Shown piece after piece: positions 5,236-62,288 of a stretch of DNA of 64,000 bases; positions within the stretch are counted from its first letter, which is position 1; the number at the start of each line of letters is the position of its first letter. Below the pieces are notes generated by a model that ran no database searches, was not told the origin of the DNA, and worked only from the letters and a program-made list of their open reading frames with translations. This DNA is from Naegleria gruberi (lineage: Eukaryota). The DNA lies in assembly GCA_000004985.1 (NCBI GenBank), contig GG738905.1, one strand, 5' to 3'. Position numbers and translations under genes: made by a program.

Positions 5236-5867
5236 TTTGTGTTATTTAGTTATTATTTAATAGTAGTGATGATAATGTTATAATTGATGATCTGTTTTGA
5301 TCTAATAAATTAAAATATTGTGATGATATTCTCTCTAGAGAGTAAAGAAGAATATTTTGGATATGTACAAAAATTAATTTGATATAATTAATAGTATAGG
5401 AAAAATGTTTGATCAGTAATTGAGTCAAACCTTGTGTATCACCAAGTTGTTGTTGTGTTGTTATTTATTTGAATGATGGAAGAACAGCGAACAAGTCGAG
5501 GCTAATTTTTTGTTGGAATGTTGGATGATACTTTGGAGTTTAAATAGAACTCTCATGAATTCGCTCAGCGAAAGATATTGTGTGTAACCCTTTTTTCAAA
5601 ATTAATACATGATAAATTATCTTTCAACTAGGTTTACATGAACTTTAGTTTCAATATTGTAATATTTATTATTTTTTAATTTTATAAAATATTTAATGGT
5701 TCAATTTTGTAAACTCTCTTCCATTTTCTAAAATGAACTGTTATTATTGACCATGCAACTCAATTAATAGAAGAGATTAAACTTGAACAACAATTGGTCT
5801 TGAATATTAAATAATAATGTAATAATGTAAATACGTTTAAAAAATCTTTTTTTAAAATTTAAAAAAA

Positions 5868-7430
5868 ATGCAAAGACTCGGAAAAACAACAAATATTCTC
5901 ATCAACAGTATTGCTCGCGGATCTGCCAAGAGAGCCTTTTCTTCATCTAGTAAATTTTTCACTGCTACTAGTGAACCATGTGGATATCCTGGTGCTGTTA
6001 ATGCTACATTGACTCATGATCTTAAATTCAGATCAAGTATGAATGAAGACGGTACACCATTCCCAATTTTCAACATCATGTCCAAGGATGGTGAAATTGT
6101 CAATGAAAAGGCTTTCAAGGAAATTGATGTAAGTTTTTTATTAGCCAAGCCTTTTTTAATTTTCATCATTTTTCCACAACAAATTAAATGTTGTTACTTC
6201 TTAATACGAATATATAATACTATATACCTGTTTGAATAATATTGTTATATATTCGGTACAAATTGCAATTTATACAATGTATTCTTCTCATCTTTATCTA
6301 TTCATCACTACATTGTCATCAACATTATCATCAACATACGATTACATCATCATCATTGTACAATTTTCAATTTTCTCTTCTTTCAATAACAGTACACAAA
6401 TGAAGATTTAGTTAACATGTACAAAACCATGATTCGTTTGGAAACTATGGATGATATTTTATATAATGCTCAACGTCAAGGACGTGTTAGTTTTTACATG
6501 ACTAATTATGGTGAAGAAGCACTTCAAATTGGATCAGCAAGTGCACTCTCACGTGATGATACAATTTTTGCTCAATATCGTGAAGCAGGTGTTTTAATGC
6601 ATCGTGGATTTACTCTTGATAATTTCCTTAATCAATGCTTCTCAACAATTGAAGATTTTGGAAAAGGTAGACAAATGCCAGTTCACTACGGATCAAAGGA
6701 ATTGAATTTCCAAACAATTTCATCACCACTTGCCACACAAATTCCACAAGCTGCAGGTGCAGGTTATGTTTATAGAATTCAAGGAAAGGAAAATGTTTGT
6801 GTTTGTTACTTTGGTGAAGGTGCTGCTAGTGAAGGTGATTTCCATGCTGCTTTGAATTTTGCATCAACTTTGAATTGTCAAACAATTTTCATTTGTCGTA
6901 ATAATGGTTATGCAATTTCAACTCCAACTCGTGATCAATATCATGGTGATGGTATTGTTGCTAGAGGTATTGGTTATGGTATTCCATCTATTCGTGTTGA
7001 TGGTAATGATTTATTTGCTTCATACTTGGCAACAAAGAAGGCTCGTCAATTGAGTATAGAATCAAAGGGACCAGTTCTTATTGAATTTATGACTTATCGT
7101 GCTGGTCACCATTCTACTTCGGATGATGCTTCTCGTTATAGATCTAATGAAGAATTATCTAAATGGAGAAATGAACAAAATCCAATTATTCGTTTCCGTA
7201 AATATTTAGAAAAGAATCAATTGTGGAATGAAGAAATGGAAAAGACTGAACGTGATACTAATAGAAAGACTGTCTTGTCGTTGTTGGCAAAGGTTGAACA
7301 TGCTCCAAAACCACATCTTGATGAATTAGTTTTGGATGTTTTCGATCAAGTTCCTCAACATTTACAACATCAAAGAGAATGGACTGAAAATATTGTTAAG
7401 AAATATCCAGAAGCTTTTGAAGGTCATTAA
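5868..7430 (+). CDS. BCKDHA: 2-oxoisovalerate dehydrogenase (branched-chain alpha-keto acid dehydrogenase) E1 alpha subunit, mitochondrial. Two exons.
   Basis: Exon 1 is 5868-6128 and ends ...KAFKEID with a GTAAGT donor at 6129. The intron ends with the acceptor ...caataacAG at 6392. Exon 2 is 6393-7430. The joined protein aligns along its length with BCKDHA (FYMTNYGEEA, YREAGVLM, GKGRQMPVHYG, ISSPLATQIPQAAGA, CYFGEGAASEGD, FICRNNGYAISTP, GYGIPSIRVDGND, EFMTYRAGHHSTSDD). Confidence 0.85.
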
Positions 7431-43720: not shown

Positions 43721-44611
43721 TTATTTGAAATATTTACATTCTGGGTTTTGGCGTTTACCATGTCCAAAACCTGGTAAATTCTTAGCATCTGGTTGTTGAG
43801 AAGCATAAACAGCAGCAGGAATGAGCTTTTTAGTAGTAGGTGCTTCCATATCAAATGATGTAAGATCAGTATATTGATTAAGTGGTGAGAAGAAAGAATT
43901 CGCTCTCAAATAATTGGCCCAAGAAAATTCTTGGAATTCTTGGTCAATCTTACCATAACCTCCTTGTCTTCTATCGAAATAAGCAAGAGAACGGAATGGA
44001 TCATTCTTTAAATACATAACTGAGGATGGAAGAGAATCTGGGAAATTATGTAATGGCTTGCCAAATTCATCATATGTATATGTCAAATTGTTCTTAATGA
44101 GAGTATTCCAGAAATTTGTCTTTGATAAGGTTGAATAATCTCTTTGAATAGTAGCGTAGACATATCTTTCAGTAATGTCACTATACTTTGGTGGAAGATA
44201 AGAACCCCTCATCATGAAAATAGCATAAATTAAATGGTGATGATCAGTAATATACAGACTAGAATTAGAATGGGTATGTTGATGATTAGAGTATGGACCG
44301 ATAACAACCGGAACTGGCTTCTTTTCTAATTGTTTGAAGAAGTCACCATTTTCAGCTAGTTCTTCCAATTTATCTCTTTTACATGCAGCAGCTACATAAC
44401 CAATTGGTAATTGTGTTGGAAAAGCATCAACAATTTTCATCAAACAAGTATCACCTTGCTTTGCAACACCCTTGTTAATCAAATCAAAACAGAAAACAGG
44501 TTCCGATGATTCTTTAGGTCCCTTAATCTTGAACCTTTCTTGGGGTGTTGCTGTTTGCACATAAATAACACCTAATACCAAAAGGATAGTTAATAGCGAG
44601 AACCCTCTCAT
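43721..44611 (-). CDS. Secreted hypothetical protein with a signal peptide.
   Basis: The probable start is MRGFSLLTILLVLGVIYVQTA at 44611, a classic signal peptide. The ORF extends to 44725. It is His-rich (HQHTHSN, ITDHHH). No family assigned. Confidence 0.45.
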   Translation of the reverse strand: MRGFSLLTILLVLGVIYVQTATPQERFKIKGPKESSEPVFCFDLINKGVAKQGDTCLMKIVDAFPTQLPIGYVAAACKRDKLEELAENGDFFKQLEKKPVPVVIGPYSNHQHTHSNSSLYITDHHHLIYAIFMMRGSYLPPKYSDITERYVYATIQRDYSTLSKTNFWNTLIKNNLTYTYDEFGKPLHNFPDSLPSSVMYLKNDPFRSLAYFDRRQGGYGKIDQEFQEFSWANYLRANSFFSPLNQYTDLTSFDMEAPTTKKLIPAAVYASQQPDAKNLPGFGHGKRQNPECKYFK

Positions 44612-44907
44612 CTTTTTTTTATTAAGATTTTTCGGAGTGTTGATATTGAGGCAGTGTAAGCTTTTAACAACAAAGATAAATAATGCGTACACATTTCTTT
44701 CTGTTAGTGAACCTTTCAATCTCATAGCATTTCAGTTTTTTGAAATTAGCTTTTCGAAATGTTCCCTCTGTAAATAGTTTTAGGAAACTAAATGAATATG
44801 AATCAATAATTAAGGGAATCAATGAGATGTAATAGTTGTAAACGGATTCTTATTTGATTGGATTAGTGGCGGCGGAATAGTTTTTTTTAGAATGAGGAAC
44901 GCTATTT

Positions 44908-51251: not shown

Positions 51252-54149
51252 TTAGTTGGTTTCTTCGTCATCTTCAATAATGTGTGGGTTGACAAAACCA
51301 GTTCTTCCTTCAATGTTAACATCTGCTTGTTCTTCTTCTTCATCTTCTTCTTCTCCCTTAATTTTAGCAACTGGATCTTGTTGAGGACCAGCAATTAAAA
51401 GTAAAGAAGGCAAGAATAATAAACCATGAAGAGCTCCAGAAACTACAATAGACAAATACATTCTAAAGTAATAAATTCTGAAAAGTTCAGAGTGGGAGAA
51501 GGCAAGGACAATTACACCAATAAATTTGGTGAAGGTAATACCAGAAAGGACAGATGAGCCCATTTCAATCATGGCCTTCTTTACTCTGTCTTTATGGGTT
51601 CCTCTAGCTTTCATAAATGCTCTAGTAATATGTACACAAAATTCAACACTTATACCAATTGACATTACCAAGTTGACAACAGATAAAGCATTTACATAAA
51701 TACCCCAAACTGCCATAATTCCCAACAAATTAGTCAAAATCATGGAAATACAAATCAAAACATAGATTGAGGCAACTGGAGAGCCTAGTAAAATTAAAGT
51801 AGTAAGGAAAACTGCACCACTAGCAATCATAATGTTCATTGCTGAAATTTCTGGTAAATAGAGATATTGGGCGAAATAAATATAATAAATACTATAAGGA
51901 TAGGTTTCAAGTGGACCAAAACCGCTGGTTGGACTATACTTTTGTGGATTGGAAAGATAAGTGGAAGTAAAGTATGATGACTTCATACTATTGATAAAAT
52001 CTTCCTGTGTTACCAATGTCTTGGTTTGTGTCATTAATCTTGCTGCATCAATAGATTTTCCATCAGCAGAGAATTTCACATCTTGCTTAAATTGGAAGCC
52101 ACAAAGTGGGACAACTTGGAAATTAATTTTACAGCATTCTTCTTGTTGAAGGAATTCCTTTAGCCATTCTACATAGTGTTCAGGAGGTACGTGGCTTGCA
52201 GAAACGTTCTTGTGTGAGCATTCATTACTCAAAACCCACTTTTTGAAATCTGTGTAGAAGAAAAGAATACTTCCTCTATCCAAATACTCGGTTTCTGCAA
52301 CAATATTCATCATTCTACTCATTTGATCTTGAACTGCATGTGAAGTATAATCCAAATTCTTTGTAACATAATAAACAGGAGGTCCTAAATCAACATATTC
52401 TCTTTGTTTTAAAAAGTATTCACCAAGATATGATCCAGTTGGTAAGGCAGTAATTTGATCAAGACCTTGGCTCAAAAACATGGAAGCATAAATAGAGGCA
52501 CCACATAGACCAAGGAAAACAATTAGAATGAAAAAGCTCACAGGAAGGAATGTCACAATTGGTGCAATAATCTTTTTCATGATAAATCTGGCTCCTCCTG
52601 CAATACTGATCCAATCTCTAGTGAAGTACTTGTTAGTAATAACGACAGTAGGTTCCAATTCCAATCTATTAGAAAGTCTTCTTCTCAAATCCAAAGATAA
52701 TAAAGCAGAGAAACATGTAACCTGAAGAACAAAGTTTGCAATAATTGCAACACCTGAAAAGATACAAAAGGCTTGTACGGCAGGCATTTTGGTCAAACTA
52801 CCAAGCATGAAAGCCAAAAATTCAGAAATTGAGGCAAGGGTCATTGAAGAACCGACAGTAGCCATTGTTTCAGCAATAGCCTCAGCAACTGTTAACTTGG
52901 AGCCCTTTCTTTTAACAACTTGATCAAGATGGTTAGCCATAATAAACATGTTATCTACACCAATAGCAAGAATAAGGAAAGGCATGACCTCCATAATAAT
53001 TAATGTGGCTGGTACACCTGCCAGACAACAAATACCAGCTGAAATAACAATTGACATTACCACAATAATCACACCAGCAAGACCCATGATAATTCTGGAT
53101 TTGATTGGGTGAATTTGACCTAGTGAAATGGCAACATAAACAAACATTACAGCATAACTTATGAGAACTGTAGAAATATCTCCACTGGTTTCATCAGCCA
53201 ATTCATCTTGTACAGATCTTTCAGCAGACACATAAATGGTGGAATAAGTACGAGGTTTTTGAGCAACTTTCAAAAATTCCTTTTCCCATAATAAAGCTCT
53301 TTCAGCTGTCACATTATCATTATTGAGAAGTATTGTGACAATAAGTGCCTGTGCTGTGGCATATGATGTTGTTGCATTGTAGGATACTTTACCAAACATT
53401 TGCTTATCATAAAGAGGAATACCAATATCTGATAAACAAATTGGGGATAAACTAATTCTTTGACTAAAATCCTTGTTAATAAACAATACTTTGAATAATT
53501 AAAACATACGTGCACAAGTATACGTGATTGACGAGTTGGTTTTTTCCAGTTTCGAAAGTGTTGTAATTCATTTGATAAAATTGAAGTGGTGATTGAATCA
53601 TGCATCCCTTAGATGGAATAGGCTTGTAGCATAAATCATCAAGTGTAATAGGTGCTGTTGAACAATTTCCATCATAAATTTTAATACTGTCAATTTCTCT
53701 TTGAATTTGAAATAATTCTTCCATCATGTCCACATTGATTGCATTCGTAATTGAAGTGTTTTTAGGGAAAATAATCATTTGTTCAATTCTAAAGAATGGT
53801 GAGAATTGGTCATCGAAATAGTTCTTTTGTTTCACAGTATCACTGTCAGGTGGAACCTATCAAAAAAAACACATTAATATCATATGATGATTTTAAATCC
53901 ACTTACCCAAAGACCTTGAGGATCAGTGATTAATTGAATGTTTTTAATTCCCACACCAATTCCGGCAGTAAAAATCACTGCAATCACAATAAATAATATA
54001 GGAACTGTAGCAGTAGCATATCCAATATAATAAAAGATGGTACGGAAAATCTTATCCAAATAATATGATGGTAATGATAAATAATAGGATAAACCCTTCT
54101 GATTGTTGTTATTATTGCTATACATTTTGTGTTGATGAAGGCTTGACAA
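51252..54149 (-). CDS. NPC1/Patched-family sterol-sensing-domain (RND-type) transporter lacking the NPC1 N-terminal domain. Three exons.
   Basis: Exon 1 is 54149-53907 (TM1, then ...DPQGLW) with a GTAAGT donor. Intron 53857-53906. Exon 2 is 53856-53510 (VPPDSDTVKQKNYFDDQFSPFFRIEQMIIFP, matching the NPC1 segment [32 protein letters not shown]) with a GTATGT donor. Intron 53464-53509. Exon 3 is 53463-51252. It carries the SSD/RND core (GVDNMFIMANHL..., two 6-TM bundles) and an acidic C-tail. Confidence 0.75.
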
Positions 54150-55807: not shown

Positions 55808-58501
55808 TTAAATAAACAATACGGATAAAATAGAAATGATTATTACATCTAAACTAAGGATGGCCATGAATGATGAATTAATTACAGAACCTCCACCAAC
55901 TACTTTCTTACTTTGGCTAGTGATTGGACAATTAGATGCCATTATTTGGTAGGATCCATAATAATCCAATCCTATTTCAATACCATTTGTTGTCTTTGAT
56001 ATCTTTGAAATTCCACCATTTCCAACAGTACTTCCAATAGAGTAGACCTTTGAATTAATACTCACACATGATGCACTTGAAATCTGTTGAAGAACTACAG
56101 TTCCCTTTGATTTTGGAGGAACTTCAACAGTAATAGAAAAGAGGTTATTAGAATTGGACCAATACACTGATAACTTTCCGTTTGGAGTTTGTACTGCTCC
56201 TTTAGCCCATGTTAATGAACCAGTTTGAGGTTTTACAACCCATTCAGAGTAACCAGTACTAGTAGGTCTGATTCCTAGAACGTATTTTGAAAGCAATGGA
56301 GAAACGCCACCACTCCAAGCATGAGCAAAACTGTTTGAGGCGCTTTGAGTGGCTCCAATTTCAATACTTTCCCAAAAAGCATTGGTAAAGTAAGGTCCCT
56401 CAACAGTCATTGGTGTCCAAACTGAATTAATAATATCAAATGCATGATCTTCTCTATTTGATTCAAATGCTGCTGCTGCATGGAAGTAAGAAATGTATGG
56501 AGAGGTAAAAGATGCTCCAGCATTCTTGAATGTTAAATAATTAGAGCCAGACTTCAATTGATCTTTCATAGTATCCAGTAATGTGCTGGAAAAGTTCTTT
56601 CCTCTCAAAGATGCAATGCCTGATAATATTGCGAATGCATTGGTATCCTGAGCTATGCCAGACTTTTGATCTGAAATAATGTAAGTACCCGAGTTTGTAT
56701 CAAACAACTTTTCATTAACTAGTTGTTTTGTAGAGTTAGCTCTTATTAAGTACGTTTCAGCCAAATTTGTTTCTCCAACTGCTTTTGCCAAAACTGAAGC
56801 AGATTCCATTGCCATAGCATATTGAATATTTAGTTTTGTAAATCTTCCCAAAAGCATTCCTAAACTTGGATAAAAGTCATAGGTCCAATTTGGATTAACA
56901 CCTTGCAACAAACCATCACTACCTTTAAGAGAATCGAAAGCATTAATGAGTAATTTCAATCTTGTCCATTGTTCCTTAACAAAAGATAAATCGCCAGAAT
57001 ATAGATAGTATTCCTCAATAGCTGATAACGAAGCTAAAAAGTATGTATAACTGTAAAATATTGGTGTTACAAAATCGTCAGATGGATCAATGGTTTGATA
57101 AGGGAAACCAGTACCAATTCTAGAAGAAACAAATCCACTTTTCAATTGATAGGATGTGCATATTCCAAGAGTTCCACTTGCATATTCATTAGCATAATAA
57201 GAATAGTATAATAATGGGCCTGCTACGAGTAAGTCACCACTCCAAACATTACGATCTCTCTTAGCACCATCCAGAATTACAGCTACAGGGTTGGTTCCAA
57301 CTCCAAAATCATGAGCTGATTGTTTTGATGTGAGAGGATCTTGATGAAGAATGCTACCACTGACATCAACTACTTTAAGATTCTTAATAAATGCACTTTG
57401 ATACTTTTTAGCAGAAAATCCAACTCCACCTGGAACAACTGATGGGATGTATGGATTAGTGGACTGAGGAAGATTAATATCAAATATCAAGGCACCATCT
57501 ATATAAACCTTAAATACAAGTTGATTAACAGAAGCAAATACATCATACCATTGATTTTCAACCAAGTTAGGAAGCGAAGTATTGTAATACAAGGTTTCAT
57601 AAGGGTAAAGCTCTTGTGCACTTATTACTTGAATCATATTTGGATTATGAGAACTATTTAGGCTATTTAAGGTGACTCTTGTTTCAGAATAGTCGTTTGA
57701 TCTAATAGCAAAAGAAATACCATTCTTCATAAATAGAGTAGAGAAGGATACATTATAATTAATCCATGACATTCCCTTTAAAAAGACACCTGCAGTACCT
57801 GGTGAAATATAAAGACCTTGATCAGTGCTAATAAACCCAGGTTGAACAGTTCTTGGTGGGACCATGTTCAATTGTAAAGTTCTTACCCCCATATTCCACA
57901 TCTTGTTGTAAACCTCATTAGAACAAGAGAAAGCACCATTAGATTGAGAAGGATCTCTGGTATAGATAGCTGATGTGAATGAAACAGAAGAGATGGTAAT
58001 AGAAGCTCCAACAGTAAGTAATTCAATTCTCTGATAACGTTGAGCTCCTTGGATACCATTTGTATCAAAATGGCCAGCTATTTCAATGGTATGGATATTT
58101 ACTCTGTCCAAATCAAAGGCACGAATCATTGGATTGAACAACATGTCGCCATCCTTAATATTTGGAAGACTTTCAGAATAGGATACTCTAATTTCTATTG
58201 GACTTTGAGAAATGGATGCAATGTCAAACATTGGAAAACCAGCAACATTTTGTCCATAATCCAAAACAATGGAAGCAAGATTACCAGACATGTCATTATT
58301 GAGAGTAAATGGAAACATTCCATCAGCACCTGCAACAGTAACACTACCATTCACAGATAAAACAGATTTTGGTTTTTGGACAAGTGGCAAATCAGCAATA
58401 CTGCTGTCACCATTCACAAACATTTCATTGAGGTTAACCCACAACGCAACCAAAACGCTTAATACCAAGCATAAAACAGCTCTACTAGTTGTAGTTGTCA
58501 T
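55808..58501 (-). CDS. Secreted glycoside hydrolase family 78 (alpha-L-rhamnosidase)-like protein.
   Basis: Intronless 897-aa ORF. Signal peptide MTTTTSRAVLCLVLSVLVALWVNLN. The GH78 catalytic-region signature DGAKRDRNVWSGD is present. There is a C-terminal (alpha/alpha)6-barrel-like region (NAFWESIEIGATQSASNSFAHAWSGGVSPLLSKYVLGIRPTSTGYSEWVVKP...LTWAKGAVQTPNGKLSVYW). Confidence 0.6.
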   Translation of the reverse strand: MTTTTSRAVLCLVLSVLVALWVNLNEMFVNGDSSIADLPLVQKPKSVLSVNGSVTVAGADGMFPFTLNNDMSGNLASIVLDYGQNVAGFPMFDIASISQSPIEIRVSYSESLPNIKDGDMLFNPMIRAFDLDRVNIHTIEIAGHFDTNGIQGAQRYQRIELLTVGASITISSVSFTSAIYTRDPSQSNGAFSCSNEVYNKMWNMGVRTLQLNMVPPRTVQPGFISTDQGLYISPGTAGVFLKGMSWINYNVSFSTLFMKNGISFAIRSNDYSETRVTLNSLNSSHNPNMIQVISAQELYPYETLYYNTSLPNLVENQWYDVFASVNQLVFKVYIDGALIFDINLPQSTNPYIPSVVPGGVGFSAKKYQSAFIKNLKVVDVSGSILHQDPLTSKQSAHDFGVGTNPVAVILDGAKRDRNVWSGDLLVAGPLLYYSYYANEYASGTLGICTSYQLKSGFVSSRIGTGFPYQTIDPSDDFVTPIFYSYTYFLASLSAIEEYYLYSGDLSFVKEQWTRLKLLINAFDSLKGSDGLLQGVNPNWTYDFYPSLGMLLGRFTKLNIQYAMAMESASVLAKAVGETNLAETYLIRANSTKQLVNEKLFDTNSGTYIISDQKSGIAQDTNAFAILSGIASLRGKNFSSTLLDTMKDQLKSGSNYLTFKNAGASFTSPYISYFHAAAAFESNREDHAFDIINSVWTPMTVEGPYFTNAFWESIEIGATQSASNSFAHAWSGGVSPLLSKYVLGIRPTSTGYSEWVVKPQTGSLTWAKGAVQTPNGKLSVYWSNSNNLFSITVEVPPKSKGTVVLQQISSASCVSINSKVYSIGSTVGNGGISKISKTTNGIEIGLDYYGSYQIMASNCPITSQSKKVVGGGSVINSSFMAILSLDVIIISILSVLFI

Positions 58502-58927: not shown

Positions 58928-60288
58928 GAAAACAATTACCGACATGTTCCAGATGTGCAACAAAAGGTATTACATGTGAATATAAAACACCAAAGAAGAG
59001 AAAGATTGCTTCGATATCATCAGCATCGGAATTGCCTGCAAAAGCAGTTTCAAAAGAAGTTGTGGAAAATAAGGATGTACCAGCTGATACAACAATTGTT
59101 TCTAGGTATTCAAAGCAATTTACAAAGAAACAAATAATTGATTTGTATTATGTGATGATTTGTGATCATTATATTATTGTTGAAAAAGAATTGTTGGAGA
59201 AGTACATCTTGAATGAGGAAATAACAGATCAGCAACCCTTAAAGAAGGAAATGAATGCCTTCTTTCATTCTATTCAAGCATTGTTGGAACAGAGATTTGG
59301 TTTTTGCGAAATTGCAGAAAAATCAGCCAAGAAATCAAGAGATTTACTATCAAAGATTTTTGATCAAGTTTCAAACTATTATGTTGCTTGCTGCTATTCA
59401 TCTCTTGGAATTTATGAAATAGGAACAGGAAGAGGAAAACTTGCAAAATTCTATATCAAAACAGCTAAATTTTACTTTGATGGGATTGAATTGGAAAAAC
59501 TTAATAATTCTGAACGTTTACTGCTCGAACTTATATCAGTAATGGAACTAATGATTGAGGATGATTTAGGCACGAACAAAATTCTAAAAGATTTCCCAAG
59601 TTACTTTTACATGGCAACCAGTACATCAGTTCCTCAACAATTTCTAGAAAAGATTCCACAACAAGTTGACTTATCAAATTTGGAGACGTATTTGGAAGTT
59701 ATTTGTCAAAGTCTCAAAGAATTTTTCATTTCTAAAGCAAAATCAACCAGATCACAATTTGACCTTATTTGGTATAGTGCTGGTTCTAATTATTATTTTG
59801 AAATAGTTCATTATGGACTGAAATTATTGTTTCTTATTCAAAATTGTCCAGAATATAGATCAGAAATTGAGCAAACTGCTTGTAAAATAACATTACTTTC
59901 AGATAGTGAATATTTTCCATTTACTACATTTGCTGCTATTCCTTATTTTACAATGGCTAGTAGAGTCCATGTACAAGTGGCCAAGGAAATTGAAAAGGGA
60001 TTGAGAAGCAATCTGTCTTATGATATTTATTCAATGATTACAAAGGATTACCGATCTCTGCATGTATTGAAATCACGTTATAAAAGAGTGAATGTTGTGG
60101 CTGGAAGTGTGATATTGGAAATGGAGGAAATATTGAAAAAAAGAGATATTGAACCAATCACCCAAGCAGAACACAACAGTGTATATTCTCCCCTTACTAA
60201 TTTCTTAGATATGTTGTTCAATCCAGACGATTCATTCAGCACTTCTATGATTTCCAGTTTAATGGACCCTTCACAAGATAAGATTTAA
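58928..60288 (+). CDS. Putative Zn2Cys6-type (fungal-type binuclear cluster) DNA-binding protein. The model is incomplete at the 5' end.
   Basis: ORF-track ORF 59032-60288 (418 aa) extends in frame upstream to 58891. The extension encodes ...LPTCSRCATKGITCEYKTPKKRK, which has the C-x2-C-x6-C + basic-tail second half of a Zn2Cys6 cluster. A possible upstream exon at 58755-58819 (MTDSKEFHPIACNFCRHLHKQ + tg|GTAAGA) would supply the first half. It cannot be joined to 58928 with canonical sites while keeping the third Cys. Confidence 0.4.
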
Positions 60289-61226: not shown

Positions 61227-62288
61227 ATGAGTAGTACTCTTGATTTACAAACAACTAATACCACATCAACAATGCCACACAGTTACTCGGAATCTGAGAT
61301 TCAAAACTTGGGTGATGATGTTTCTATTGATAGTGAAGAATTCAATAATACCGTAGTTGCTATGGACCAATTAACACTTGGTTCCACACCACTAGACGGT
61401 CTTACTGATAAGCAATTGGAAATATTGAAGAAGTTTACCCAAATGTTTGAAGATGACCGTTCCAAACTGACCCAACTTCAACAATATTATTGTTTCCATG
61501 ATAGATTCTGTTTTGTCAGATATTTGAAAGCCAGAGATTGGGACATTCCAAATGCTACTAAATTATTGAAGAGTTCTCTTACTTGGATTGAATCCTCATA
61601 CAAGCCATTTAGTTTAACTGCTAAACAATTATGGTTAGAAGCATCACCTGCCAAGACTTATATCAAGGGTCATGATAAGGCTGGTCGTCCAATTATTTAT
61701 CTTCATGCCGGTAGAGATTTCACAAATGATCCTGCTACTGGTGTTAGTTTACTTGTTTATAATTTGATTGCTGCCAGTTATAGAATGGGTCCAAATGGTT
61801 CTCAAATGACTTGGATTTGTGATTTCAGTTCCTACACAACAAAGTCTGCTCCTCCATTGGCAGTTTGTAAACAAGCTGTTGAAATTTTATCTTCACACTT
61901 CCCTGAAAGACTTGGTTTGTGTTTGATGGTCTTTGCTCCTAAGGTTTTCTATTGGTTCTTCAAATTAATTTCTCCTCTCATTCCACCTGTCACTAAGCAA
62001 AAGATTCAATTCTGTAAGGGCACCAAACAAAAGGATATGAGAGCATTCTTTGAACCATTTGTGGATATGTCTCAACTTGAAAAGAAATATGGAGGTGATC
62101 AAGATTTCACATACAATCATAAGGAAATGTGGGCTCACGAAATTGAACATGATTTGAAGAGATTGCACAAAATTAAGGAAGCTGGTGGTATGAAACCAGA
62201 AGAAGCTGATGCTTTAATTAATGAACCAATTATTGACACTTTGGAAAAGCACAACAAGTTTTTCAAAGCCAGACATGCTTCCAAATAA
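61227..62288 (+). CDS. SEC14/CRAL-TRIO lipid-transfer protein.
   Basis: 353-aa single ORF. It has a CRAL-TRIO N-terminal helical region (YYCFHDRFCFVRYLKARDWDIPNATKLL) and the lipid-binding domain (DKAGRPIIYLHAGR..., QMTWICDFS..., HFPERLGLCLMVFAPKVFYWFFKLISPLI). Confidence 0.75.
   Translation: MSSTLDLQTTNTTSTMPHSYSESEIQNLGDDVSIDSEEFNNTVVAMDQLTLGSTPLDGLTDKQLEILKKFTQMFEDDRSKLTQLQQYYCFHDRFCFVRYLKARDWDIPNATKLLKSSLTWIESSYKPFSLTAKQLWLEASPAKTYIKGHDKAGRPIIYLHAGRDFTNDPATGVSLLVYNLIAASYRMGPNGSQMTWICDFSSYTTKSAPPLAVCKQAVEILSSHFPERLGLCLMVFAPKVFYWFFKLISPLIPPVTKQKIQFCKGTKQKDMRAFFEPFVDMSQLEKKYGGDQDFTYNHKEMWAHEIEHDLKRLHKIKEAGGMKPEEADALINEPIIDTLEKHNKFFKARHASK

What the first reader, a model, noticed from the sequence alone, without database searches (positions are those of the whole stretch)
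55808..58501. Intronless secreted GH78 alpha-L-rhamnosidase-like gene, a candidate horizontal acquisition
This 2.7-kb ORF has no introns, while most neighbouring genes have several. It starts with a signal peptide and carries the GH78 hallmark DGAKRDRNVWSGD plus a six-hairpin-barrel-like C-terminal region. GH78 enzymes are typical of bacteria and fungi and rare in animals and most protists. In a gene neighbourhood full of metazoan-type cilium genes this is conspicuous. Its codon usage is fully ameliorated (AT-rich, Asn-rich), so any transfer would be old.
Basis: partly seen in the sequence, partly recalled or inferred. Interest (0 to 1): 0.6.

Follow-up and report, generated by a model that had tools for sequence, protein, structure and literature searches.

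The report
Amoeba rhamnosidase gene shared with rotifers
This is a real, intact gene of the amoeba Naegleria gruberi for a probably surface-anchored enzyme that probably clips the sugar rhamnose off glycans; its closest relatives are in another amoeba genus, bdelloid rotifers and an amoebozoan-like organism rather than in bacteria, which points to old gene exchange between eukaryotes.

Summary
Window 55808-58501 on the minus strand is one uninterrupted 897-aa ORF, 100% identical to a Naegleria gruberi predicted protein. It is a GH78 alpha-L-rhamnosidase by Pfam, PDB sequence search, AlphaFold/Foldseek and conserved catalytic residues (D416, D423, E711, H727). It has an N-terminal signal-like segment, a ConA-like module inserted at residues 222-402, and a C-terminal hydrophobic tail that looks like a GPI signal.

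The horizontal-transfer reading is only partly right.
- The gene is not contamination and not recent. Its flanks are eukaryotic, its codon usage matches the host, and Willaertia magna has an intronless orthologue (55% identity) next to the same Zn-cluster and CRAL/TRIO genes.
- Being intronless is not diagnostic in this lineage.
- The nearest relatives are not bacteria, whose best identity is 34%. They are bdelloid rotifers (47-55%) and an intron-bearing copy in a probable tubulinean amoeba (43-49%), then Protostelium (33%), then Dikarya fungi.
- My likelihood tests place this clade with fungi (RELL 0.98) and against any bacterial group.

The best reading is vertical descent within the Naegleria/Willaertia lineage after older eukaryote-to-eukaryote transfers. 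The direction of those transfers is unresolved. This is a new member of a known enzyme family, of moderate evolutionary interest.

The parts
55808..58501 (-). Complete intronless coding sequence of an 897-aa GH78 alpha-L-rhamnosidase-like protein. The stop codon is at 55808-55810.
   Evidence: ORF. (100% identical to the N. gruberi predicted protein P0001, also 897 aa). (Pfam).
58409..58501 (-). N-terminal signal-peptide-like segment, residues 1-31. It has R7 followed by the hydrophobic core AVLCLVLSVLVALWV.
   Evidence: hydropathy above 2.0 for 15-residue windows starting at residues 5-11, i.e. residues 5-25. (isolated helix 5-29 of low to moderate confidence). All relatives in the eukaryotic clade have a similar N-terminus. 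No signal-peptide predictor was available.
57839..58384 (-). N-terminal beta-sandwich domain, residues 40-221.
   Evidence: aligns to residues 16-189 of A. niger Rha 8IWD. (beta strands, pLDDT about 85-96).
57296..57838 (-). ConA-like jelly-roll module, residues 222-402, inserted between the N-domain and the catalytic domain. It is a putative carbohydrate-binding module and is absent from the solved Aspergillus 'short-form' enzymes.
   Evidence: gap in the PDB alignments. (insert present or absent classes). (weak Laminin_G_3 hit). (domain model, pLDDT 93). (best folds are CBM66 4B1M, E 5e-7, TM 0.60-0.67, then the levanase C-domain, galectins and laminin G).
56279..57295 (-). (alpha/alpha)6 catalytic domain, residues 403-741.
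   Evidence: PF17389, above gathering score. (Foldseek to AoRhaA 8HMM, E 8e-39, target TM 0.83).
57233..57271 (-). Active-site motif DGAKRDRNVWSGD, residues 411-423. It holds the putative general acid D416 (nt 57254-57256) and the rhamnose O3/O4 ligand D423.
   Evidence: aligned to KoRha Asp222/Asp229 and BT1001 Asp335/Asp342. (roles as given in PMC4690510). (D411, G412, K414, R415, D416, R417, W420 and D423 invariant in 32 sequences)..
56369..56371 (-). Codon of E711 in FWE, the putative general base. The nearby H727 codon is at 56321-56323.
   Evidence: aligned to KoRha Glu486/His508 and BT1001 Glu595/His620. (W710 and H727 invariant, E711 at least 90% conserved)..
55934..56275 (-). C-terminal beta-sandwich, residues 743-856. 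PF17390 covers 743-807 and extra strands follow.
55811..55933 (-). Flexible linker ending in small residues (VVGGGS) plus a 20-residue hydrophobic C-terminus with no cytosolic extension. This is a GPI-attachment-signal-like or tail-anchor segment (residues 857-897).
   Evidence: hydropathy. (pLDDT below 50 at 861-884, then a helix at 877-896). Equivalent tails occur in Willaertia, bdelloids and the L004 organism, but not in fungi or the Protostelium transcript.
59032..60288 (+). Neighbouring host gene (Zn-cluster-type in Willaertia). It is used as a microsynteny anchor and is not part of the enzyme gene.
   Evidence: window 59257-59439 matches Willaertia L001 6914-6732 at 54% aa identity..
61227..62288 (+). 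Neighbouring CRAL/TRIO (Sec14-like) host gene, the second microsynteny anchor.
   Evidence: PF00650, 1.4e-29. (41% aa identity over 132 aa to the Willaertia CRAL_TRIO gene that lies next to its GH78).

Best explanation
The ORF is a functional nuclear gene of Naegleria gruberi. It encodes a 'long-form' GH78 alpha-L-rhamnosidase.

Shown:
- The domain order is signal-like N-terminus, beta-sandwich, inserted ConA-like module, (alpha/alpha)6 catalytic barrel, C-terminal beta-sandwich, then a hydrophobic tail.
- The residues that do the chemistry in solved relatives are present.

Inferred mechanism: an inverting, single-displacement hydrolysis of terminal alpha-L-rhamnosides. D416 acts as general acid, E711 as general base, and D423, Y483 and H727 hold the sugar. 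The enzyme is exported and kept on the cell or phagosome membrane by a GPI anchor or tail anchor. The ConA-like module binds the glycan. The likely substrates are rhamnose-rich bacterial or plant/algal polysaccharides met by a bacterivorous soil amoeba.

Evolution:
- The gene was already at this locus in the common ancestor of Naegleria and Willaertia, and has been vertically inherited since.
- It belongs to a tight, eukaryote-only clade made of Heterolobosea, bdelloid rotifers and a probable tubulinean amoeba. These are mutually 43-55% identical and share the tail.
- The next relatives are Protostelium and then Dikarya fungi. Bacterial homologues are more distant.
- Because these hosts are unrelated, the clade must have spread by at least two eukaryote-to-eukaryote transfers. 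Their direction is unresolved.
For: Identity and integrity.

GH78 membership.

Catalytic residues.

Insert fold.

Termini.

Host integration: eukaryotic neighbours; host codon usage.

Vertical descent in the Naegleria/Willaertia lineage: intronless Willaertia orthologue beside Zn_clus and CRAL_TRIO genes; the same two neighbours in the window; Naegleria+P0002, and these plus Willaertia, each 99% NJ bootstrap.

Eukaryote-only clade:
- with bdelloids 100% bootstrap, with Protostelium 100%.
- Willaertia-Adineta 54.6% identity against Willaertia-Naegleria 54.9%.
- L004 copy with two GT-AG introns, a signal peptide and a GPI-like tail.
- the HisRS gene of that organism is closest to Copromyxa and Amoeba proteus.
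- trees that break up the Heterolobosea+L004+bdelloid clade (Protostelium placed inside it) are worse by at least 42 lnL, more than 3 SE.

Fungal rather than bacterial affinity:
- the sister clade is made of named Dikarya.
- the top nine of 51 placements are on or inside the fungal clade. The best non-fungal placement is 24 lnL worse, KH z about 2.2. RELL is 0.98 for fungal placements and 0.018 for the rest.
- 584 bacterial relatives, none above 34% identity.

Rotifer copy is genomic: (A. vaga chromosome CP075495, intronless, with eukaryotic neighbours).
Against: - No biochemical data exist. Substrate, anchoring and localisation are inferred.
- No GPI or signal-peptide predictor was available.
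- The position equivalent to BT1001 Trp440 is Phe543 (Phe or Tyr across the clade), a minor departure in the sugar pocket.
- The phylogenies are my own NJ and fixed-backbone likelihood calculations, using a Gonnet-derived model with 4 gamma categories. They are not a full ML or Bayesian search with mixture models.
- Support for the fungal affinity is moderate (NJ 85%, KH z 2.2-2.5).
- Raw identity to bacterial proteins (29-34%) is slightly higher than to fungal ones (25-32%).
- The Protostelium sequence comes from a transcriptome of a mycophagous amoeba and could be prey-derived.
- The identity of the L004 organism rests on one housekeeping-gene fragment.
- Absence from N. fowleri and other Heterolobosea is only 'not found among protein-database hits'. 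Their genomes could not be searched.
Confidence: 0.7

Rival explanations
1. Direct, ancient bacterium-to-Naegleria transfer. This is the classic reading of an intronless secreted glycosidase in a protist. Similar genes in rotifers and other amoebae would then be independent acquisitions from related bacteria.
For: - GH78 is overwhelmingly bacterial. There are 4690 hits in the representative search and 584 relatives in GTDB genomes, many from soil taxa such as Burkholderia, Paenibacillus, Streptomyces and Chloroflexia.
- Bacterial long forms share the same ConA-like insert.
- Bacterial proteins have slightly higher raw identity (29-34%) than fungal ones.
Against: - No bacterial sequence exceeds 34% identity, while unrelated eukaryotes share 43-55%.
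- The eukaryotic copies share a signal peptide and a C-terminal hydrophobic tail, which independent bacterial acquisitions would not explain.
- Likelihood placement on bacterial branches is 24-31 lnL worse, with combined RELL 0.018.
Confidence: 0.07
2. Ancient vertical inheritance. A long-form GH78 was present in early eukaryotes and has been lost from nearly all lineages. The Naegleria copy was never transferred, and only the rotifer copy is foreign.
For: - All eukaryotic long forms (the amoeba/rotifer clade plus Dikarya) group together to the exclusion of bacteria.
- Within the Naegleria/Willaertia lineage the gene is vertical and syntenic.
Against: - Heterolobosea (Discoba), a probable tubulinean amoebozoan and bdelloids form a near-trichotomy at about 50% identity. 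Protostelium (Amoebozoa) and fungi are far more distant at 25-33%, which contradicts the species tree.
- No homologue was recovered from any other discobid, from non-bdelloid animals, plants or most protists in a 5.8-billion-protein search.
- The scenario needs dozens of independent losses.
Confidence: 0.1
3. Heterolobosea are the source rather than a recipient. The gene entered, or arose in, the vahlkampfiid lineage first and was later passed to bdelloids and to the amoebozoan-like organism.
For: - Branch order among the three lineages is unresolved, RELL 0.58/0.36/0.06.
- Bdelloids are known to hold many protist-like foreign genes. PMC4632278 reports about 29% of foreign Rotaria transcripts with protist best hits.
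- Willaertia is as close to Adineta (54.6%) as to Naegleria (54.9%).
Against: - Heterolobosea are monophyletic in the gene tree, not paraphyletic around the other two.
- Protostelium (Amoebozoa) is the next outgroup, which fits an amoebozoan source at least as well.
- This is a variant of the best explanation rather than a contradiction of it.
Confidence: 0.25
4. Contamination, an assembly artefact, or a decaying or non-catalytic relic.
For: None specific. This is the generic worry for bacterial-looking genes in protist assemblies.
Against: - The gene lies within a 290-kb N. gruberi scaffold between eukaryotic genes.
- Codon usage is host-like.
- There is a syntenic orthologue in an independent Willaertia assembly.
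- The 897-codon ORF is intact and all catalytic residues are conserved across the clade, with 70% mean column identity.
Confidence: 0.02

Closest known systems
Aspergillus oryzae AoRhaA (PDB 8HMM) and Aspergillus niger N12-Rha/Rha-2 (PDB 8IWD/8IWF), GH78 alpha-L-rhamnosidases
   Same: - They are the best sequence and structure matches: phmmer E 6e-30 and 4.5e-29, Foldseek E about 1e-38, target TM 0.83.
- They share the N-terminal beta-sandwich, the (alpha/alpha)6 barrel and the C-terminal beta-sandwich.
- They share the DGAKRDR.VW.GD acid motif with Asp (not Glu) as the putative acid, the FxE base and the AHxWS histidine.
   Different: - The fungal enzymes are about 640-aa 'short forms'. They lack the 180-residue ConA-like module (residues 222-402) and the C-terminal hydrophobic tail.
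- Identity is only about 20%.
- They are soluble secreted enzymes studied on flavonoid rhamnoglucosides. The Naegleria substrate is unknown.
Bacteroides thetaiotaomicron BT1001/BtRha78A (PDB 3CIH) and Klebsiella KoRha (PDB 4XHC)
   Same: They belong to the same GH78 sub-type with an Asp general acid. The query's D416, D423, Y483, E711 and H727 align to BT1001 Asp335, Asp342, Tyr383, Glu595 and His620, and to KoRha Asp222, Asp229, Tyr284, Glu486 and His508.
   Different: - The accessory domains differ.
- BT1001 Trp440 corresponds to Phe543 here.
- The loop carrying BT1001 Tyr610 / KoRha Tyr498 is absent from the query in the alignment.
Bdelloid rotifer 'alpha-L-rhamnosidase-like' genes, for example Philodina roseola B3G4P2 and Adineta vaga I4U23_010757
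   Same: - Full-length homologues at 47-55% identity with identical domain order, signal peptide and C-terminal hydrophobic tail.
- They are intronless.
- They form a 100%-supported clade with the heterolobosean genes.
   Different: - The host is an animal lineage famous for foreign genes.
- The A. vaga copy lies about 445 kb from the end of a 16.3-Mb chromosome.
- The link to heterolobosean amoebae was not found in the searchable literature.
Bacterial 'long-form' GH78 proteins with a DUF1080/ConA-like insert (Streptomyces, Burkholderia, Paenibacillus, Chloroflexia and others)
   Same: They share the N-domain / ConA-like insert / catalytic / C-domain architecture over 82-88% of the query.
   Different: - Identity is only 28-34%.
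- Many carry extra F5/8 type C modules; no tail resembling the eukaryotes' C-terminal hydrophobic tail was looked for in them.
- They fall outside the eukaryotic clade in NJ and likelihood tests.
CBM66 (Bacillus subtilis SacC, PDB 4B1M/4AZZ) and other ConA-like lectin folds
   Same: This is the best structural match for the inserted module: E 5e-7, TM 0.60-0.67, with a beta-jelly-roll topology.
   Different: - Identity is 12% and there is no sequence-profile match to CBM66.
- The ligand-binding residues were not compared.
- The resemblance is at fold level only.

Membership tests
CAZy GH78 / Pfam Bac_rhamnosid6H + Bac_rhamnosid_C | Profile match to the (alpha/alpha)6 catalytic domain and the C-terminal beta-sandwich, above the curated thresholds. 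| tested here: met
   PF17389 scores 50.9 bits (cut-off 24.5) and PF17390 scores 53.9 bits (cut-off 22.1).
CAZy GH78 / Pfam Bac_rhamnosid6H + Bac_rhamnosid_C | Three-dimensional fold superimposable on solved GH78 enzymes. | tested here: met
   The AF2 model has pLDDT 87 and pTM 0.86. The top 11 Foldseek PDB hits are all GH78 rhamnosidases, with 8HMM at E 8e-39 and target TM 0.83.
CAZy GH78 / Pfam Bac_rhamnosid6H + Bac_rhamnosid_C | General acid (Asp or Glu in the D..KRD/ER..W.GD motif), general base Glu, and sugar-binding Asp and His. | tested here: met
   D416, D423, E711 and H727 align to the KoRha and BT1001 residues. They are invariant or at least 90% conserved in 32 homologues.
CAZy GH78 / Pfam Bac_rhamnosid6H + Bac_rhamnosid_C | Measured alpha-L-rhamnosidase activity with inversion of configuration. 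| not testable with these tools
   Requires an enzyme assay.
NCBIfam equivalogs rhamnosid_Flavobac (NF041572) and rhamnosid_Stmyc (NF041573) | Whole-protein score above the equivalog cut-off. | tested here: not met
   Scores are 38 and 35 bits against cut-offs of 1800 and 1720, and only the C-terminal region matches. It is not a member of these bacterial equivalogs.
Horizontally acquired gene in Naegleria | Physically integrated among host genes (not contamination). | tested here: met
   Eukaryotic neighbours, microsynteny with Willaertia and host codon usage.
Horizontally acquired gene in Naegleria | Gene tree incongruent with the species tree, and patchy distribution. | tested here: met
   Heterolobosea, bdelloids and an amoebozoan-like organism form a clade. 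Protostelium and fungi are outside it. No other eukaryotic groups appear among the close hits.
Horizontally acquired gene in Naegleria | Absent from close relatives of the host (lineage-specific acquisition). | tested here: not met
   A syntenic orthologue is present in Willaertia magna, and a 59% relative (P0002) is sister to the Naegleria protein. Not found in N. fowleri proteomes among the hits, but those genomes could not be searched.
Horizontally acquired gene in Naegleria | Prokaryotic donor identifiable. | tested here: not met
   Best bacterial identity is 34%. Bacterial placements are rejected at RELL 0.018.
GPI-anchored surface protein | N-terminal signal peptide plus a C-terminal signal: a small-residue omega region, a short spacer, and a hydrophobic tail ending the protein. 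| tested here: inconclusive
   The sequence pattern fits...VVGGGSVINSS followed by a 20-aa hydrophobic end with no cytosolic residues. No GPI predictor or experiment was available, and a tail-anchored transmembrane helix is not excluded.
CBM66 (for the inserted module) | Sequence-family membership and conserved ligand-binding residues. | tested here: inconclusive
   Only fold similarity was found (TM 0.60-0.67, 12% identity). Pfam gives a weak Laminin_G_3 hit (E 0.005). Bacterial relatives carry PF06439 at this position.

The most novel reading that the evidence does not exclude
One membrane-anchored GH78 rhamnosidase cassette (signal peptide, ConA-like module, catalytic barrel, GPI-like tail) has moved directly between unrelated phagotrophic eukaryotes that share soil and freshwater habitats. 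These are heterolobosean amoebae, tubulinean amoebozoans and bdelloid rotifers. The Naegleria gene would then be one end of at least two eukaryote-to-eukaryote transfers. The bdelloid 'foreign' rhamnosidase, known since 2008, would have an amoeba-type rather than a bacterial or fungal source.
Probability: 0.65. Interest if true: 0.6.

Novelty: new member of a known kind. Interest (0 to 1): 0.45.

Why it matters
The enzyme itself is an ordinary family member. What is worth keeping is the evolutionary pattern.

- A complete eukaryote-adapted gene, with its targeting signals, is shared at about 50% identity by a discobid amoeba lineage, an amoebozoan-like organism and bdelloid rotifers, and by almost nothing else.
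- That gives a concrete, testable example of eukaryote-to-eukaryote gene flow among co-habiting phagotrophs.
- It points to an amoeba-type donor for one of the classic bdelloid foreign genes.
- It shows that 'intronless plus bacterial-looking' is not enough to infer a bacterial donor.
- It also flags an uncharacterised 'long-form' GH78 architecture, with a ConA-like module inserted before the catalytic barrel. I found no solved structure with this architecture among the PDB matches.

Tried and rejected
- Exact-protein look-up of the window gene in the contig index found nothing on record.
- The Naegleria genome paper (PubMed id 20211133) is not held. Three other papers did not give Naegleria intron density. 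The figure I recall (about 36% of genes with introns, about 0.7 per gene) is unverified here.
- Literature searches for Naegleria+rhamnosidase, bdelloid+rhamnosidase and GH78+rotifer found nothing on this gene. A search for Naegleria GPI anchors was unproductive.
- A search with a kinase neighbouring the GH78 gene failed to identify the L004 organism. A HisRS exon from the longer contig L142 did give a lead.
- The metagenome scan with clade-specific patterns added only one more bdelloid-like locus (L086). L141, listed at '74% identity', turned out to be a 23-residue match in a 74%-GC bacterial short form.
- A full NNI likelihood search was too slow, with one round taking 267 s. I replaced it with a placement scan and fixed-topology tests.
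- Contamination, pseudogene and direct bacterial-donor readings were considered and rejected for the reasons given under the rival explanations.


Full report
**What is there.** Window 55808-58501 holds a single uninterrupted ORF on the minus strand. It starts with ATG and encodes 897 aa, with the stop at 55808-55810. The protein is 100% identical over its full length to a 'predicted protein' of Naegleria gruberi on a 290,827-bp scaffold. That identifies the window's source. The whole window is AT-rich, 20-36% GC per 2 kb.

**Is it a GH78 enzyme?**
- Pfam places Bac_rhamnosid6H at residues 403-741 and Bac_rhamnosid_C at 743-807, both above their gathering scores.
- The bacterial NCBIfam equivalogs are far from met.
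- Against solved structures, the best sequence hits are the Aspergillus niger and A. oryzae rhamnosidases 8IWD and 8HMM (E 6e-30 and 4.5e-29), then Bacteroides BT1001 (3CIH). The identities of these PDB entries come from PMC11901676.
- An AlphaFold2 model built on 32 homologues is confident, with pLDDT 87 and pTM 0.86.
- Its eleven best Foldseek matches in the PDB are all GH78 rhamnosidases. 8HMM scores E 8e-39 with target TM 0.83.

**Catalytic residues.** The motif DGAKRDRNVWSGD sits at residues 411-423.
- In residue-level alignments, D416 and D423 match KoRha Asp222/Asp229 and BT1001 Asp335/Asp342.
- E711 matches Glu486/Glu595, H727 matches His508/His620, and Y483 matches Tyr284/Tyr383.
- PMC4690510 assigns these residues as general acid, O3/O4 ligand, catalytic Glu and sugar ligands.
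- All are invariant or nearly invariant across 32 homologues.
- Two small departures exist. BT1001 Trp440 corresponds to Phe543, and the loop bearing BT1001 Tyr610 is missing.

**Architecture.** The PDB alignments skip residues about 230-400.
- In a 182-sequence alignment the family splits into two classes. 'Short forms' of about 650-700 aa lack this stretch, like the solved Aspergillus enzymes. 'Long forms' of about 830-900 aa have it.
- Modelled alone, residues 222-402 give a confident beta-jelly-roll (pLDDT 93).
- Its best structural matches are CBM66 of Bacillus subtilis SacC (E 5e-7, TM 0.60-0.67), the C-terminal domain of levanase BT1760, galectins and laminin-G modules.
- I read it as a ConA-like putative carbohydrate-binding module. 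This is a fold-level resemblance only.
- The protein has exactly two strongly hydrophobic stretches, residues 5-25 and 877-897.
- The second one ends the protein. It follows a disordered linker and a run of small residues (VVGGGS). That is the layout of a GPI-attachment signal, although a tail anchor is not excluded.

**Host integration and age.**
- Flanking ORFs are ordinary eukaryotic genes: NPC1/Patched-like, C2-domain, CRAL/TRIO and an amino-acid transporter. Further away lie E1 dehydrogenase, kinesin, Kelch-RhoGAP and malic enzyme.
- Codon usage is indistinguishable from 14 other ORFs in the window. GC3 is 0.235 against 0.14-0.30, and RSCU correlation is 0.94. Asn content (6.7%) is unremarkable.
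- Willaertia magna, a vahlkampfiid relative, has an 877-aa intronless orthologue (55-56% identity). It lies next to a Zn-cluster gene and a CRAL/TRIO gene. The window has homologues of the same two genes immediately upstream of the GH78 gene, with a local rearrangement.
- The gene was therefore at this locus before Naegleria and Willaertia diverged.
- Six of the seven other complete gene calls around the Willaertia copy are also intronless. Lack of introns is therefore not a signal of foreign origin here.

**Who else has it.** The word-indexed search of 5.8 billion proteins returned only 43 hits at E up to 1e-5.
- After Naegleria come a metagenomic protein (P0002, 59%) and Willaertia (56%).
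- Next come bdelloid rotifers at 48-49% over about 90% of the length: Adineta vaga, A. ricciae, A. steineri, Philodina roseola and Rotaria sordida.
- Actinobacterial-type proteins follow at 30-34%, and fungi at 25-28%.
- The exhaustive HMMER search of 1.84 billion representatives found 4690 homologues. Only two cluster representatives exceed 40% identity. The next is a Protostelium nocturnum transcript at 36%.
- A scan of 185,579 bacterial and archaeal species genomes found 584 relatives, none above 34% identity. The best are Burkholderia, Paenibacillus, Actinoplanes, Chloroflexia and Streptomyces.
- The A. vaga copy is intronless and lies on a 16.27-Mb chromosome at 15.83 Mb, among eukaryotic genes.

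**A further eukaryotic lineage.** One more lineage emerged from metagenome contigs L004 and L142-144.
- There the gene has two canonical GT-AG introns of 56 and 65 bp. It encodes an 877-aa protein with a signal peptide and a textbook GPI-like tail.
- A histidyl-tRNA synthetase exon on the same contig is closest to Copromyxa protea (68%) and Amoeba proteus (67%), against 50-54% for plants and stramenopiles.
- The host is therefore probably a tubulinean amoebozoan. This inference rests on a single gene fragment.

**Phylogeny: neighbour-joining.** The tree used 89 sequences, 652 columns and 200 bootstraps.
- Naegleria+P0002 and their grouping with Willaertia each get 99% support.
- Adding the bdelloids gives 100%, and adding Protostelium gives 100%.
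- The sister group is a large clade at 85% support. Every named member of it is a Dikarya fungus, including Ilyonectria, Rhizoctonia, Naematelia, Kwoniella, Monilinia, Verruconis, Aspergillus and Alternaria.

**Phylogeny: likelihood.** No ML program was available, so I wrote a likelihood evaluator. It uses a rate matrix derived from the Gonnet matrix, four gamma categories and analytic gradients checked against numerical ones.
- I grafted the amoeba/rotifer clade onto each of 51 backbone branches. The nine best positions were all on or inside the fungal clade.
- After fuller optimisation, the best position was sister to all fungi.
- The best non-fungal position was 24.1 lnL worse (KH z 2.2). 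Bacterial positions were 25-31 lnL worse.
- RELL support was 0.98 for fungal-associated placements and 0.018 for the rest.
- Within the clade, Heterolobosea, the L004 organism and bdelloids group to the exclusion of Protostelium. Alternatives were at least 42 lnL worse, more than 3 SE.
- The order of those three lineages is unresolved, with RELL 0.58/0.36/0.06.
- Pairwise identities tell the same story. Willaertia is as similar to Adineta (54.6%) as to Naegleria (54.9%).
- The C-terminal hydrophobic tail is shared by these three lineages and absent from fungi.

**Interpretation.** The enzyme assignment is secure.
- The inferred mechanism is the inverting GH78 reaction, with D416 as acid and E711 as base, carried out by an exported, membrane-tethered protein. 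A ConA-like module probably helps bind polymeric substrate.
- Rhamnose-rich bacterial envelopes or plant/algal glycans are the plausible targets for a bacterivorous amoeba. This is my inference and is untested.
- The gene is old and vertically inherited within the Naegleria/Willaertia lineage.
- Its relatives are eukaryotic, and a bacterial donor is disfavoured.
- A discobid, a probable amoebozoan and an animal lineage share a gene at about 50% identity, while nearer relatives lack it or have far more divergent copies. Vertical descent cannot explain that, so at least two eukaryote-to-eukaryote transfers are needed.
- Bdelloids are known to carry many protist-like foreign genes (PMC4632278), so the rotifer side is expected. 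The heterolobosean-amoebozoan link and the amoeba-type affinity of the rotifer gene were not found in the searchable literature.

**Caveats.**
- The trees are my own distance and fixed-backbone likelihood analyses with a single-matrix model.
- Fungal affinity has moderate support, and raw identity to bacteria is marginally higher than to fungi.
- Protostelium eats fungi, so its transcript could derive from prey.
- The genomes of N. fowleri and other Heterolobosea could not be searched. Their 'absence' means only that no protein hit was returned.
- Signal peptide, GPI anchoring, substrate and localisation are inferred from sequence alone.

**Verdict.** This is a new member of a known enzyme family in an uncharacterised long-form architecture. 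Its distribution is a tidy case of probable inter-eukaryote gene transfer. Interest is moderate.

Noticed in passing
window 43721-44725 (-): A 334-aa ORF with a strong match to PF08857 ParBc_2, 'putative ParB-like nuclease' (E 6.6e-42). This family is more usual in bacteria and mobile elements, so it may be another candidate for foreign origin.
   Followed up: no
L004 5448-8202 (also L142-L144): This homologue, from a probable tubulinean amoeba, carries two GT-AG introns (5828-5883 and 6231-6295). The heterolobosean and bdelloid copies have none. The gene lies next to a C5 DNA-methyltransferase-like gene and split kinase genes.
   Followed up: partly
L002 10001-12655 (Adineta vaga CP075495.1, 15.83 Mb of 16.27 Mb): The A. 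vaga copy lies about 445 kb from a chromosome end. From memory, bdelloid foreign genes are enriched towards chromosome ends.
   Followed up: no
family-wide (alignment, tree): Short forms (no ConA-like insert) and long forms are interspersed among the bacterial branches of the NJ tree. This suggests repeated gain or loss of the inserted module, or poor resolution in that part of the tree.
   Followed up: no
window 56873-56875 (-), residue F543: The aromatic residue equivalent to BT1001 Trp440 / KoRha Trp341 in the sugar pocket is Phe here, and Phe or Tyr throughout the amoeba/rotifer clade. This could bear on substrate specificity.
   Followed up: partly
window 51252-54149 (-): An NPC1/Patched-like sterol-sensing-domain gene lies about 1.7 kb from the 3' end of the GH78 gene, beyond the C2-domain gene. 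It is split into at least two ORFs, so it has at least one intron.
   Followed up: no
L003 (JGI 3300002220, 3.6-kb contig, 41% GC): An unidentified organism carries the closest relative of the Naegleria protein (59% identity, sister at 99% bootstrap). The copy is intronless and has a hydrophobic tail. It is presumably another Naegleria-like vahlkampfiid.
   Followed up: partly
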